Shown piece after piece: positions 2,426 to 4,655 of a DNA stretch of 32,000 nucleotides (position 1 is its first letter; every line of letters starts with the position of its first letter). Below the pieces are notes generated by a model that did not search any database, had not been told where the DNA came from, and saw only the letters and a program-made list of their open reading frames with translations. A program made the position numbers and the translations under genes. Source of the DNA: Candidatus Saccharimonadota bacterium (GTDB lineage: Bacteria; Bacteroidota; Bacteroidia; Flavobacteriales; Blattabacteriaceae); the NCBI RefSeq assembly GCF_033372575.1, contig NZ_CP104094.1, positions 14,354 to 46,353 of the forward strand, written 5' to 3'.

Positions 2426-3148
2426 ATGTTAGATATAAATAATTTATATGTAAAAATAAAAAATAATTTAATTATTAAAGGTTTAAATTTAAAAATTAAA
2501 AATAATGAAATTCATATCATTATGGGACCAAATGGATCAGGAAAAAGTACATTATCATATGTAATATCAGGTAAACAAAAATATATAATTGAAAAAGGAA
2601 AAATATTATTTAATAATAAATTAATTAATAATTTATCACCTTATGAAATATCAAAATTAGGAATTTATTTATCATTTCAATATCCAATAGAAATAAATGG
2701 TATAACAATGTATAGTTATTTAAAAACTATATTAAAAAAAAAATATAATAATAGAGTAATATTAAAAAAAATATATAAAGTATGTAAAAAATTAAAAATA
2801 AATAAAAATTATTTATATCGTTATTTTAATGTAGGTTTTTCAGGTGGAGAAAAGAAAAAAAATGAAATATTACAAATGTTATTATTAAAACCTAAATTAG
2901 TTATATTAGATGAAATTGATTCTGGATTAGATATAGATACATTAAATATAATATTTAAAAATATAAATAAATATAAAAAAAAATATAAATGTTCAATAAT
3001 AATAATTACACATAATACAAATATTATAAAATATATAAATACTAATTATGTGCATATATTATATAATGGAAAAATAATAAAAAGTAGTAATAAGAATATA
3101 ATAGAAAAAATAGAAAAATATGGATATAAAAAAATAGTAAAACAATGA
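2426..3148 (+). CDS. sufC: Fe-S cluster assembly ATPase SufC
   Basis: 240-aa ORF with Walker A GPNGSGKST, ABC signature FSGGEKKKNE and Walker B LVILDEIDSGLD. It ends in TGA, which overlaps an ATG (ATGA at 3145-3148). Confidence 0.9.
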   Translation: MLDINNLYVKIKNNLIIKGLNLKIKNNEIHIIMGPNGSGKSTLSYVISGKQKYIIEKGKILFNNKLINNLSPYEISKLGIYLSFQYPIEINGITMYSYLKTILKKKYNNRVILKKIYKVCKKLKINKNYLYRYFNVGFSGGEKKKNEILQMLLLKPKLVILDEIDSGLDIDTLNIIFKNINKYKKKYKCSIIIITHNTNIIKYINTNYVHILYNGKIIKSSNKNIIEKIEKYGYKKIVKQ

Positions 3149-4655
3149 AAATAGAAGAATTAATAAAAAATATAAATAAAAAAAAAAGAAAAAAATTATT
3201 AAAAATATTAATAAAAAAAAAAAAAAAAAAAAAAAAAAAATAAAAAAATTAAAAAATAAAAAAAATAAAAAAATAAAAAAAAAAAAAAAAAAAAAAAAAA
3301 AAAAAAAAAAAAAAAAAAAAAAAAAAAAAAAAATAAAAAAAAAAAAAAAAAAAAAAAAAAAAAATAAAAAAAAAAAAAAAAAAAAAAAAAAAAAAAAAAA
3401 AAAAAAAAAAAAAAAAAAAAAAAAAAAAAAAAAAAAAAAAAAAAAAAAAAAAAAAAAAAAAAAAAAATTATTAAAAAAATTAAAAAAAAAAAAAAATAAT
3501 ATAAAGGATAAATATAAATATTCAAAAATTAAAAATATTATAAAATTAAATAAAATATATAATAATAAAAATAATAAATATAATAAAAATGAAAAAAAAT
3601 ATAAATTAAATATAAAATATAATAATGATATAAATATTACATATAAAAATGGGAAATTAACAAATATAATAATTAAAAAAAATATAAAAAAATTAATAAA
3701 AATTAAAAAAATATTAATAAAAAAAATAATTAATAAATATTTAAAATATTTTAGATTTTATAATTATTATTCTTTAATTAATATATTATACTTATCAAAT
3801 AAAAAAAAATATATTTATTTAATAGATATAAAAAACATTTTAATAATAGATTTAAAAATATATTATATATATTTAAAAAATTATAAATATAAAGAAATAA
3901 TAAATGATAATGTATTTATAAAAGTAAAAAATAAAATTAATATTATAGAGGAATATATAATTAATAATAATAAAAAAAAAATAATTAATAATTCAATAAT
4001 TAATATATTATTAAAAAAAAACAGTGAAGTAAATTATTATAAATATAATAATAAAACATTATATATAAATAATATTAACAATATCTATATATATCAAGAT
4101 TATAAAAGTAAATTAATATTATATAATATAGATTATAATAATAGATTAACTTTAAATGATATAAATATAAAATATATAAATAATAAATGTTATACTAGAG
4201 TATATAATATAATAATATTAAGCAAAAATCAAATATTAGAAAATTATATAAATATAAAAAATAATTATAATTATTGTAATAATAAATTATATTATATAGG
4301 AGTTTATAATTATAATTCATATTGTGTAATAAATGGAAATATAAATATAAAAAATAAAACTAAAAATAATATATCATTACAAAATTATAAAAATTTTATT
4401 TTATCTAATAAAGTATTTTTATTTGCTAAACCAGAATTAAATATTAATTCTAATAAAGTAATATGTTCACATGGATTTACATTAGGAAAAATAGATAAAA
4501 ATATAATTTATTATTTATTAACTAGAGGATTAAAATTAAAAAAATGTAAAATAATATTTTATTTATCAAATATTTATAAATATTTAATTTTAAAAAATAA
4601 ATATTTAAATAATATAAAAAATAATATTATTAAAAAATTATATACAATTATTTAA
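3145..4655 (+). CDS. sufD: SufD-like Fe-S assembly protein; the reading frame is interrupted and needs a -1/+2 shift inside a poly(A) run
   Basis: Manual translation shows the frame with codon starts divisible by 3 is stop-free from 3180 to TAA 4653-4655. Its C-terminus reads ...FAKPELNINSNKVICSHGFTLGKIDKNIIYYLLTRGL..., matching the SufD/SufB C-terminal signature (P.LEI..DDVKCSHGAT.G..D...LFYL.SRG). The position between sufC and sufS is canonical. That frame has no ATG, GTG or TTG. The only ATG (3145) is in another frame, which stops at TAA 3241-3243. Confidence 0.6.
3213..3496. repeat. Giant poly(dA) tract (270 A + 14 T, no G/C)
   Basis: Runs counted from the sequence are A28 (3213-3240), A59 (3275-3333), A30 (3335-3364), A102 (3366-3467) and A15 (3482-3496). 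There is no G or C from 3189 to 3505. Confidence 0.95.

What the first reader, a model, noticed from the sequence alone, without database searches (positions are those of the whole stretch)
3145..4655. SufD frame is 492 codons long and stop-free with no in-frame start codon; the only ATG is out of frame and the frames meet in a poly(A) run
Manual translation supports the following.
- The frame carrying the SufD C-terminal signature (KPELNINSNKVICSHGFTLGKIDKNIIYYLLTRGL) is open from 3180 to 4655. It contains no ATG, GTG or TTG, which is why no ORF appears in the supplied track.
- A 1476-nt stop-free frame in DNA this AT-rich, where TAA is very frequent, is very unlikely by chance. The frame therefore still appears to be under selection.
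- The natural start is the ATG at 3145, overlapping the sufC TGA as ATGA like other coupled genes here. It is in a different frame, which terminates at TAA 3241.
- The two frames are simultaneously open only across 3180-3240, a stretch of A7, A7 and A28 runs.
- A full-length product would therefore need a -1 shift, equivalent to one extra A in the mRNA. It would then carry about 85 codons that are almost all Lys, including 34 consecutive AAA codons.
- Alternatives are initiation at a non-canonical ATA/ATT after the tract (for example around 3501-3530, giving about 375 aa), or a recently dead gene.
Basis: partly seen in the sequence, partly recalled or inferred. Interest (0 to 1): 0.8.

Follow-up and report, generated by a model that had tools for sequence, protein, structure and literature searches.

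The report
sufD split by runaway poly(A) tract
In a beetle endosymbiont with a tiny, 16 % GC genome, the iron-sulfur assembly gene sufD has had a short lysine-codon A-run balloon into a ~285-base poly(A) tract that leaves its start codon one base out of frame. The rest of the gene still looks selected, so it is probably still expressed by slippage or a downstream start, an extreme example of a known endosymbiont phenomenon.

Summary
The window is Candidatus Shikimatogenerans bostrichidophilus with a sufB-sufC-sufD-sufS operon. The SufD frame (3180-4655, 491 codons) has no ATG/GTG/TTG. The orthologous ATG (3145) lies in another frame that stops at 3241.

An intact sister-strain gene (405 aa) shows the cause. 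An in-frame A14 run has become a 285-nt tract (A28, A59, A30, A102, A15) bracketed by a duplicated motif. One extra A in the A28 run would give a continuous 503-aa ORF.

The post-tract body (385 codons) is full-length SufD by HMM, fold and the CSHG motif. Branch-specific dN/dS is 0.29, against 0.31 in the intact strain. It has no stop where 8-13 are expected under neutrality. Only the SufD frame is open through the tract (P=0.025).

In the same window valS is broken in the same way, one A short at an A14 run.

Most likely sufD is still expressed, through A-run length heterogeneity (slippage, or an assembly miscount) or a downstream non-AUG start. The first ~70 residues are absent in other Shikimatogenerans SufDs. 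A very recent pseudogene and a mis-assembled tract are not excluded.

This is a known kind of feature (homopolymer frameshift in an endosymbiont gene) at an exceptional scale.

The parts
950..2353 (+). sufB, intact
   Evidence: NF008773 SufB at 745.8 bits, above its cut-off. PF01458 and PF19295.
2362..2424 (.). (AATAG)~12.8 microsatellite filling the sufB-sufC spacer. This is a second simple-sequence expansion next to the tract.
   Evidence: TRF period 5, 12.8 copies, 93 % matches. The same spacer is 17-23 nt in strains C and B.
2426..3148 (+). sufC, intact. Its TGA overlaps the sufD ATG as ATGA.
   Evidence: TIGR01978 at 278 bits, above its cut-off. Sequence.
3145..3243 (+). Ancestral 5' end of sufD: ATG plus 23 orthologous codons, then 9 AAA codons and TAA. 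It is in a different frame from the gene body.
   Evidence: Translation. Alignment to strains C and B.
3213..3240 (+). A28 run, the only place where the ATG frame and the SufD frame can be joined. A29 or A26 would give one ORF of 503 aa.
   Evidence: Both frames are open only up to TAA 3241. The first T after the run is compatible with the SufD frame and is a stop in the ATG frame.
3213..3497 (+). Poly(A) tract of 285 nt (270 A, 15 T): A28, A59, A30, A102, A15 and short runs. In the SufD frame it reads as about 95 codons that are nearly all Lys.
   Evidence: Run census. Composition, and the finding that only the SufD frame is open through it (shuffle P=0.025). It replaces an A14 run in strain C.
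3196..3212 (+). Left copy of the duplicated motif TTATTAAAAATATTAAT
   Evidence: Both copies align to the single ancestral segment in strains B and C.
3468..3484 (+). Right copy of the duplicated motif TTATTAAAAAAATTAAA
3180..4655 (+). Complete stop-free SufD frame: 491 codons plus TAA, with no ATG/GTG/TTG/CTG
3498..4655 (+). Conserved SufD body of 385 codons. It carries the CSHG motif aligned to E. coli SufD C358/H360. The confidently modelled part (first beta-strand) begins at body residue ~45 (window ~3630).
   Evidence: PF01458 E=3e-36. PDB sequence match to E. coli SufD 267-386. AlphaFold pLDDT 73.8, and Foldseek to SufD chains 5awg_F and 2zu0_B at E~1e-10, TM 0.63. Omega 0.29.
3981..4655 (+). 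RefSeq gene model WP_420095090.1 (224 aa, ATA start). Probably too short.
   Evidence: P0001 is 100 % identical to this stretch. The 161 codons upstream have no stop, have omega 0.38, and form beta-helix strands in the model.
4657..5880 (+). sufS, intact. It starts 1 nt after the sufD stop.
   Evidence: PF00266 E=1e-123.
3208..3525 (-). Spurious 105-aa poly-Phe ORF, the reverse complement of the tract
   Evidence: ORF list. It lies entirely in the complement of the poly(A) tract.

Best explanation
sufD in this strain is a still-selected gene that is most likely still expressed. Its 5' lysine-codon A-run has undergone runaway slipped-strand expansion.

Shown: an ancestral in-frame A14, as kept in sister strain C, was duplicated together with its flanking motif. 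It then expanded to a 285-nt, 95 % A tract. As assembled, the orthologous ATG (3145, coupled to the sufC stop as ATGA) is one base out of register with the SufD body. The only possible junction is the A28 run at 3213-3240.

Inferred: homopolymers this long do not have a fixed length. DNA replication, RNA polymerase and the ribosome all slip on them, and sequencing cannot size them. A fraction of genome copies, transcripts or translating ribosomes therefore carry the equivalent of A29. They read from ATG 3145 through a Lys-rich insert into the SufD body.

The insert sits in the N-terminal ~70 residues. Other Shikimatogenerans SufD proteins lack these residues altogether, so a disordered poly-Lys extension there, or its absence, need not impair the beta-helix core that pairs with SufB and SufC.
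For: Origin of the tract
- The ATG and its first 23 codons are orthologous to the intact strain-C gene. The tract replaces an A14 run and is bracketed by two copies of TTATTAAAAAnATTAA.
- A single-base change in A28 restores a 503-aa ORF.

Selection on the body
- Omega on the window's branch is 0.29 (18 synonymous, 29 non-synonymous changes). It differs from 1 at p=1e-4 and equals the intact strain's 0.31.
- There are zero stops, where 8.5-13 are expected if the gene had been neutral over the whole branch. This is compatible only with 0.02-0.03 or fewer neutral substitutions per site.
- There are no frameshifting indels relative to the orthologues.

The tract itself
- Of the three frames, only the SufD frame is stop-free through it. 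When the T units are shuffled, P=0.025. This is expected if the tract has been translated in that frame.

Precedent in the same window
- The essential gene valS is split at an A14 run (20733-20746) into pieces matching model positions 2-686 and 685-859 of 860. It also needs +1 A.
- 21 other A/T runs of 12-17 nt lie in or beside unbroken ORFs.

A second expansion nearby
- A second simple-sequence expansion, (AATAG)12.8, lies 800 nt upstream in this strain only.

Literature
- Frameshifts in poly(A) tracts of endosymbiont genes are rescued by transcriptional slippage, with about 30 % corrected transcripts and no rate acceleration (PMC3017870).
- E. coli ribosomes slide between frames on A11 or longer (PMC4363877).

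Dispensable N-terminus
- SufD of four other Shikimatogenerans lineages (326-344 aa) starts at about body residue 40-45.
- Residues 1-37 of the body are modelled at pLDDT ~30.
Against: - Reading through about 95 almost purely AAA codons should be very inefficient. (AAA)12 already lowers output and causes premature termination in E. coli (PMC4363877).
- Each further long run (A59, A30, A102, A15) can re-randomise the frame. My rough estimate of the productive fraction is only a few per cent (inference).
- The frameshift is not conserved. Strain C is in frame and strain B has no tract. The hallmark of maintained slippage-rescued genes in Blochmannia and Buchnera is therefore missing.
- Strain B's independent lesion, TAA at codon 36, cannot be bypassed by slippage. 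If that copy is functional, it needs a downstream start.
- No read, transcript or protein data could be examined.
Confidence: 0.4

Rival explanations
1. Internal initiation. The ancestral ATG is abandoned. The SufD core is translated from a near-cognate codon (ATA or ATT) just downstream of the tract. Candidates in frame are 3501, 3528, 3537, 3540, 3555, 3612, 3630 and 3636. The product would be about 340-385 aa. The poly(A) tract would act as an unstructured, A-rich leader.
For: - Four other Shikimatogenerans SufDs naturally begin at about body residue 40-45, and the modelled fold starts there.
- Strain B has a TAA at codon 36 with an otherwise intact, equally constrained frame (omega 0.24) and no canonical start downstream. 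If functional, it must use such a start.
- Bacteroidia initiate without Shine-Dalgarno pairing. Initiation is favoured by unstructured mRNA and upstream adenines (PMC6847099).
- infC is reported missing from Shikimatogenerans genomes (bioRxiv 10.1101/2025.10.31.685726). IF3 is the factor that rejects non-canonical start codons (established knowledge).
- RefSeq itself models an ATA start.
Against: - No canonical start codon is present, and no site can be singled out. There are 54 ATA and 27 ATT codons in frame.
- This does not explain why the SufD frame alone stays open through the tract (P=0.025).
- The promoter-like scan is at the chance level, 39 found against 39.1 expected.
- The RefSeq start at 3981 in particular is unlikely. 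The 161 upstream codons are stop-free, have omega 0.38 and are part of the beta-helix.
- The absence of infC was not verified for this genome.
Confidence: 0.25
2. Very recent pseudogene. The expansion and frameshift killed sufD a short time ago. The clean body only reflects recency. The loss would be tolerated because SufB-SufC can work without SufD, or because an intact sufD persists in a related genome (strain C).
For: - sufD is the least constrained suf gene here, with omega ~0.3 against 0.05-0.23 for the others.
- It is damaged in two of three closely related 152-160 kb genomes and intact in one. The same one-in-three pattern holds for rpmB, rpmG and rpsL in the same region.
- GenBank has no sufD protein for the window or for strain B.
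- sufBCDE genes are reported absent from some Shikimatogenerans genomes.
- The zero-stop result still allows neutrality over the last ~20-30 % of the branch.
Against: - If a copy died at a uniformly random time on its branch, the chance of no further stop is 0.08-0.12. For both damaged strains together it is 0.006-0.014.
- Both lesions lie in the dispensable first ~36 ancestral codons.
- Omega is not raised on either damaged branch (Fisher p=1.0 against the intact strain).
- The tract keeps the SufD frame open.
- The lost ribosomal-protein genes have been deleted without trace, whereas sufD is full length.
Confidence: 0.22
3. Assembly artefact. The tract, or at least its frame, is a product of assembling or polishing low-complexity reads. 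The real gene is an ordinary in-frame sufD like that of strain C.
For: - Shikimatogenerans genomes from this group were built from Illumina, ONT R9.4 and PacBio reads with SPAdes and MaSuRCA (PMC10284843).
- None of these platforms sizes A28-A102 runs reliably (established knowledge).
- Both frame breaks in the window, sufD and valS, are 'one A short', the direction of the usual homopolymer under-call.
Against: - The flanks on both sides are colinear with the orthologue. The tract carries a diverged duplicate of the flanking motif and 15 interspersed T residues that all fit one reading frame. That is not what a homopolymer miscall produces.
- 21 other runs of 12-17 nt in the window cause no frame breaks.
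- The record is a closed 156,922-bp contig.
- A miscount of A28 by one base is quite possible, but that is a sub-case of the best explanation and does not remove the tract.
Confidence: 0.08

Closest known systems
Frameshifted genes in poly(A)/poly(T) tracts of insect endosymbionts (Buchnera, Blochmannia) rescued by transcriptional slippage (Tamas et al. 2008; Williams & Wernegreen 2010, PMC3017870)
   Same: - A single-base indel inside a coding-strand A-run.
- An AT-rich, reduced endosymbiont genome.
- The gene is otherwise intact.
- No rate acceleration on the affected lineage.
- A second, essential gene (valS) in the same genome has the same defect.
   Different: - The tracts described there are about 9-12 nt. 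Here the junction run is 28 nt, inside a 285-nt tract with an A102 run.
- The frameshift is not shared with sister strains.
- The corrected product would carry about 95 extra, nearly all-Lys residues.
- Rescue was not tested here.
Ribosome sliding and attenuation on lysine-encoding poly(A) tracks (Koutmou et al. 2015, PMC4363877; Arthur et al. 2015, PMC4552401), and the poly(A)-tolerant translation of Plasmodium falciparum (PMC7295572)
   Same: - Iterated AAA codons in an ORF.
- Frame changes without an mRNA change are possible on A11 or longer.
- An AT-rich genome in which such tracks accumulate.
   Different: - Those tracks are 12-40 nt. None approaches 100 consecutive A in a bacterial gene.
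- Whether this symbiont's ribosomes tolerate them is unknown.
Phase-variable contingency genes with 5' homopolymeric tracts (slipped-strand mispairing in Haemophilus, Neisseria, Campylobacter)
   Same: A homopolymer near the 5' end of the coding region whose length sets whether the start codon is in frame.
   Different: - There is no evidence of adaptive ON/OFF switching.
- This is a housekeeping Fe-S assembly gene in a vertically transmitted symbiont.
- The tract is far longer than the usual 8-20 nt.
Canonical SufD of the SufBC2D scaffold (E. coli SufD, PDB 1VH4, 2ZU0, 5AWF)
   Same: - sufBCDS operon position.
- SUFBD core domain.
- Beta-helix plus C-terminal helices.
- The CSHG motif.
   Different: - Only 14-16 % identity in the structural alignment.
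- The score is below the NCBIfam equivalog cut-off.
- There is no in-frame start codon.
- The N-terminal region is dispensable or variable within the genus.

Membership tests
SufD (Fe-S cluster assembly, SufBD family) | SUFBD core domain match above the curated threshold | tested here: met
   PF01458 at 124.7 bits against a cut-off of 27, E=5e-36.
SufD (Fe-S cluster assembly, SufBD family) | Equivalog-level score for SufD (TIGR01981 or NF008194) | tested here: not met
   TIGR01981 scores 122.6 bits against a cut-off of 222. NF008194 scores 35.8-53.8 against 489. SufD is the best-scoring family (SufB scores 20 bits), but the score is below the trusted cut-off, as is common for very AT-biased symbiont proteins.
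SufD (Fe-S cluster assembly, SufBD family) | Position between sufC and sufS in a sufBCDS operon | tested here: met
   The same order is found in four related genomes.
SufD (Fe-S cluster assembly, SufBD family) | SufD fold: right-handed beta-helix followed by a C-terminal helical domain | tested here: met
   AlphaFold model with pLDDT 73.8. Best PDB matches are E. coli SufD chains 5awg_F, 2zu0_B and 5awf_B at E~1e-10, TM 0.61-0.63.
SufD (Fe-S cluster assembly, SufBD family) | Conserved Cys-x-His of the C-terminal core (E. coli SufD C358/H360). The functional role is from the literature, recalled and not re-read. | tested here: met
   VICSHGFTLGKIDK aligns to VKCSHGATVGRIDD of E. coli SufD. C323, H325 and G326 are invariant in 10 sequences.
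SufD (Fe-S cluster assembly, SufBD family) | Uninterrupted ORF with a start codon | tested here: not met
   No ATG/GTG/TTG/CTG is in frame. The orthologous ATG is in another frame.
Slippage-rescued homopolymer frameshift of endosymbiont genes | A single indel confined to a poly(A)/poly(T) tract of 9 nt or more, in a gene otherwise in frame | tested here: met
   The frames can only be joined within A28 (3213-3240). There is no other stop or frameshift relative to the orthologues.
Slippage-rescued homopolymer frameshift of endosymbiont genes | No accelerated or relaxed evolution of the frameshifted copy | tested here: met
   Omega is 0.29 against 0.31 in the intact strain. Fisher p=1.0.
Slippage-rescued homopolymer frameshift of endosymbiont genes | Frameshift conserved between populations or species | tested here: not met
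   Strain C is in frame with A14. Strain B has no tract.
Slippage-rescued homopolymer frameshift of endosymbiont genes | A mixed mRNA pool containing corrected transcripts, and a full-length protein | not testable with these tools
   Needs cDNA amplicon sequencing and proteomics.
Pseudogene | Multiple disabling lesions and/or dN/dS approaching 1 | tested here: not met
   There is one lesion only. Omega is 0.29 (p=1e-4 against 1). There are zero stops against 8.5-13 expected under neutrality.
RefSeq model WP_420095090.1 (224 aa, ATA start at 3981) | Sequence upstream of the modelled start is non-coding and unconstrained | tested here: not met
   The 161 upstream codons are stop-free, have omega 0.38 and are modelled as beta-helix strands E45-E155.
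Phase-variable contingency locus | Tract-length polymorphism within the population that switches expression | not testable with these tools
   No reads or population data were accessible.

The most novel reading that the evidence does not exclude
The tract is real and is translated. This symbiont's transcription and translation machinery copes with a ~95-codon, almost pure AAA insert that includes 34 consecutive AAA codons. Selection has kept that insert open in the SufD frame. That would make it a bacterial counterpart of the poly(A)-tolerant ribosomes of Plasmodium. With homopolymers this long, the genomic reading frame would no longer determine the product.
Probability: 0.15. Interest if true: 0.8.

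Novelty: new variant of a known kind. Interest (0 to 1): 0.5.

Why it matters
Homopolymer frameshifts rescued by polymerase slippage are an accepted feature of reduced endosymbiont genomes, but the described tracts are about 9-12 nt. Here the tract is an order of magnitude longer and sits in a gene whose body still shows purifying selection.

If confirmed by reads, it would:
- mark an upper extreme of simple-sequence instability in a bacterial coding region;
- show how far a gene's 5' end can be damaged while the core stays selected;
- give a natural test case for two open questions: whether bacterial ribosomes can be adapted to long poly(A)/poly-Lys stretches, and whether IF3-less, Shine-Dalgarno-independent Bacteroidota symbionts start translation at non-AUG codons.

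Practically, it shows that the current RefSeq model (224 aa from ATA) is probably wrong. It also shows that sufD and valS in these genomes should not be scored as lost.

Tried and rejected
Searches that returned nothing
- I looked for independent assemblies of the same strain to size the tract. Exact-protein look-ups of the window's SufC, SufS and RefSeq SufD found no indexed contig. A metagenome scan for the left junction found nothing. The tract length therefore could not be cross-checked.
- A first ValS search with a 183-aa fragment returned nothing. The full 699-aa query worked.
- Literature searches found no paper describing this tract or the 'Strain A/B/C' genomes.

Tests that were uninformative
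- The promoter/terminator scan of 2300-4800 was at the chance level, 39 found against 39.1 expected, with no terminators. It is uninformative in 84 % AT DNA and does not model Bacteroidota promoters.
- Rfam and tRNA scans of the window found only tRNA-Val at 6826-6900. Nothing lies in the tract.
- YN00 dN/dS failed with math errors or gave saturated dS for most pairs. I used NG86 and a majority-rule branch count instead. AT bias makes the absolute omega values approximate, so I rely on the comparison with the intact strain and with the neighbouring genes.

Readings considered and rejected
- The minus-strand 105-aa ORF at 3208-3525 as a gene. It is poly-Phe, the complement of the tract.
- TGA read as Trp (genetic code 4). 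sufC ends at the TGA at the same point as its orthologues and its HMM, and the neighbouring genes read normally under code 11.
- A programmed frameshift of the prfB or dnaX type. There is no conserved shift site, and the break is absent in sister strains.
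Full report
**1. What is there**

The window has 15.9 % GC. It belongs to Candidatus Shikimatogenerans bostrichidophilus, a Bacteroidota endosymbiont of bostrichid beetles. The SufD and SufC products are identical to NCBI proteins from a 156,922-bp contig of that organism.

Positions 950-5880 hold a sufB-sufC-sufD-sufS operon:
- sufB: NF008773, 746 bits.
- sufC: TIGR01978, 278 bits.
- sufS: PF00266, E=1e-123.

Between sufC and sufS, the frame whose codons start at positions divisible by three is open from 3180 to TAA 4653-4655. That is 491 sense codons with no ATG, GTG, TTG or CTG. The frame matches PF01458 (SUFBD_core) at E=5e-36.

The ATG at 3145 overlaps the sufC stop as ATGA. 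It is in another frame, which ends at TAA 3241.

- The runs in the 3180-3240 overlap are A8, A7, A5 and A28.
- There are other out-of-frame ATGs.

**2. Where the anomaly comes from**

Sister strain C (NZ_CP104096.1, locus L001) has an intact 405-aa sufD with a normal ATG. Its N-terminus is MKIKKIINNINKKKRKKILKLLIKKKKNIKDKYKYS.
- The window's ATG frame encodes MKIEELIKNINKKKRKKLLKILI followed by Lys codons.
- The window's SufD frame resumes with ...KKKKNNIKDKYKYS.

So 3145 is the ancestral start.

Where strain C has an in-frame A14, the window has 285 nt (3213-3497) made of 270 A and 15 T. The runs are 28, 59, 30, 102 and 15 nt. The tract is bracketed by two diverged copies of the ancestral motif TTATTAAAAAnATTAA. 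This points to a duplication followed by slipped-strand expansion.

Elsewhere in the 32 kb, the longest A-run is 17 and the longest Lys run is 5.

A pentanucleotide array, (AATAG)12.8, fills the sufB-sufC spacer of this strain only (the spacer is 17-23 nt in strains C and B). Simple-sequence expansion is therefore not confined to one site.

All T residues after the A28 run fit the SufD frame. The first one (3241) is a stop in the ATG frame. The whole frame problem thus reduces to one base: A29 or A26 in place of A28 would give a continuous ORF of 503 aa.

**3. Is the body still a gene?**

The post-tract 385 codons align to E. coli SufD. Residues 232-351 match E. coli 267-386, with CSHG matching C358/H360. 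They fold as a SufD-like beta-helix with C-terminal helices (pLDDT 73.8; Foldseek E~1e-10 to SufD chains in 5AWG, 2ZU0 and 5AWF).

I made codon alignments of the window, strain C, strain B (CP104095.1, L002) and two outgroups. Changes were assigned to branches by majority rule.

| Gene | Window | Strain C (intact sufD) | Strain B |
|---|---|---|---|
| sufD omega | 0.29 | 0.31 | 0.24 |
| sufB omega | 0.05-0.10 across the three branches | | |
| sufC omega | 0.14-0.23 across the three branches | | |
| sufS omega | 0.14-0.17 across the three branches | | |

- The window branch differs from neutrality at p=1e-4 and does not differ from the intact strain.
- Simulating neutral change over that branch (dS 0.104) gives 8.5-13 stop codons, and P(no stop) is 2.5e-4 or less.
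- Zero stops is compatible only with about 0.02-0.03 or fewer neutral substitutions per site, the last 20-30 % of the branch.
- The 161 codons upstream of the RefSeq start (ATA 3981, 224-aa model WP_420095090.1) are also stop-free. They have omega 0.38 and form beta-helix strands, so that model is too short.

**4. Clues to how it is expressed**

(a) Only the SufD frame is open through the tract. When the T units are shuffled among the A's, that frame is open in 2.5 % of trials. This suggests the tract has been read in that frame.

(b) valS, an essential gene, is broken in the same window at an A14 run (20733-20746). The pieces match model positions 2-686 and 685-859 of 860. It also needs one extra A. 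Either A-run slippage rescue operates in this organism, or the assembly under-calls long A-runs by one. Either reading also removes the sufD frame problem.

(c) Strain B has an independent lesion, TCA to TAA at codon 36. Its frame is otherwise intact, is equally constrained, and has no canonical start downstream. If each damaged copy had died at a random time on its branch, the chance that neither shows a second stop is 0.006-0.014.

(d) SufD proteins of four other Shikimatogenerans lineages are 326-344 aa and begin at about residue 40-45 of the window's post-tract body. Residues 1-37 of the body are predicted disordered. Both lesions therefore lie in a dispensable N-terminal region.

(e) From the literature:
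- Homopolymer frameshifts in Blochmannia and Buchnera genes are rescued by transcriptional slippage, with tracts up to ~12 nt and about 30 % corrected transcripts (PMC3017870).
- E. coli ribosomes slide on A11 or longer, and (AAA)12 lowers output (PMC4363877).
- Bacteroidia initiate without Shine-Dalgarno pairing, helped by upstream adenines (PMC6847099).
- infC is reported absent from Shikimatogenerans, and sufBCDE is reported absent from some of its genomes (bioRxiv 10.1101/2025.10.31.685726).

**5. Verdict on mechanism**

sufD here is most likely still functional. I give four readings:

| Reading | Confidence |
|---|---|
| The ATG frame and the SufD frame are joined through length heterogeneity of the A28 run (replication or transcription slippage, ribosome sliding, or simply a one-base miscount in the assembly). 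The product carries a Lys-rich N-terminal insert. | 0.40 |
| A near-cognate start downstream of the tract. Strain B would require this, and the naturally shorter SufDs of relatives make it plausible. | 0.25 |
| A pseudogene less than ~0.03 substitutions per site old. | 0.22 |
| The tract itself is an assembly artefact. | 0.08 |

Shown: the anatomy, the orthology, the selection signal and the valS parallel.

Inferred: every statement about transcripts, ribosomes and the true tract length.

The published genomes of this group were assembled from Illumina, ONT R9.4 and PacBio data (PMC10284843). I could not establish which data underlie this particular record.

**6. Comparison and novelty**

The feature works like the slippage-rescued poly(A) frameshifts of other insect endosymbionts. 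It meets the sequence-level criteria: a single indel in a tract, a gene otherwise intact, and no rate acceleration. It fails the conservation-across-strains criterion, and the tract is 3-10 times longer than any described there.

I rate it a new variant of a known kind, of moderate interest. The interest would rise if reads confirm an A102-containing tract in a selected gene.

**7. Context noticed on the way**

The three 152-160 kb genomes differ reciprocally in essential genes within the syntenic regions I could see.

| Gene(s) | Window | Strain B | Strain C |
|---|---|---|---|
| rpmB (L28) | present | absent | absent |
| rpmG (L33) | absent | present | absent |
| rpsL (S12) | absent | absent | present |
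| rpsN (S14) | absent | site not covered | present |
| rplR-rpsE-rpsK-rpsD-rpoA-rplQ | present | partly deleted | deleted |
| First ~125 codons of valS, with the HIGH motif | present | deleted | deleted |

All three genomes are smaller than the 173-200 kb reported for closed genomes of this symbiont. This pattern would fit co-resident, complementary lineages. It would also raise the prior for sufD being a fresh loss in the window.

Noticed in passing
window 18652-21251 (junction at the A14 run, 20733-20746): valS is split into a 699-aa ORF (ValRS model positions 2-686 of 860) and a 176-aa ORF (positions 685-859). The break is at an A14 run and needs one extra A, the same direction as sufD. NCBI annotates only the 699-aa piece as valine--tRNA ligase. 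Strains B and C are in frame at this site.
   Followed up: yes
window 5897-8155 and 14061-19024, compared with L001, L002, L005, L006: Gene content differs reciprocally among the three 152-160 kb genomes.
- L28 is found only in the window, L33 only in strain B, and S12 only in strain C.
- S14 is in strain C but not in the window.
- L18, S5, S11, S4, rpoA, L17 and the first ~125 codons of valS (with the HIGH motif) are present in the window. They are deleted at the syntenic site in strain C and partly in strain B.
This suggests complementary, possibly co-resident lineages (Hodgkinia-like), or relocations.
   Followed up: partly
L002 4470-5708 (strain B, CP104095.1): sufD of strain B has a single in-frame TAA at codon 36 (TCA in the window and in strain C). 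Its frame is otherwise intact and constrained (omega 0.24) and has no canonical start downstream. RefSeq aa from an ATA start.
   Followed up: yes
window 2362-2424: An (AATAG)~12.8 microsatellite occupies the sufB-sufC spacer, which is 72 nt here and 17-23 nt in strains C and B.
   Followed up: partly
window 23000-23927: mnmA appears broken. A 192-aa ORF covers only the N-terminal HUP domain. It is followed by ~350 nt with stops in all frames. A C-terminal-like remnant (...AVTPGQFIVWY...LIGSGII) lies in another frame just before mtaB.
   Followed up: partly
window 17588-18307: rpoA is only 239 aa. It has the dimerisation and insert domains, with no match to a C-terminal domain.
   Followed up: no
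window 11564-11881: A 105-aa ORF with no Pfam hit sits between rplD (L4) and rplB (L2), the place where rplW (L23) normally lies. A preprint reports rplW missing from all Shikimatogenerans. This ORF could be a highly diverged L23.
   Followed up: no
window 13297-15047: rpsC (S3) is followed directly by rplE (L5) and then rpsH (S8). The usual L16, L29, S17, L14, L24 and S14 genes are not at this place.
   Followed up: no
window 27827-28237 (- strand): A 136-aa ORF next to a thioredoxin-reductase-like gene has no Pfam match at E<=1e-5.
   Followed up: no
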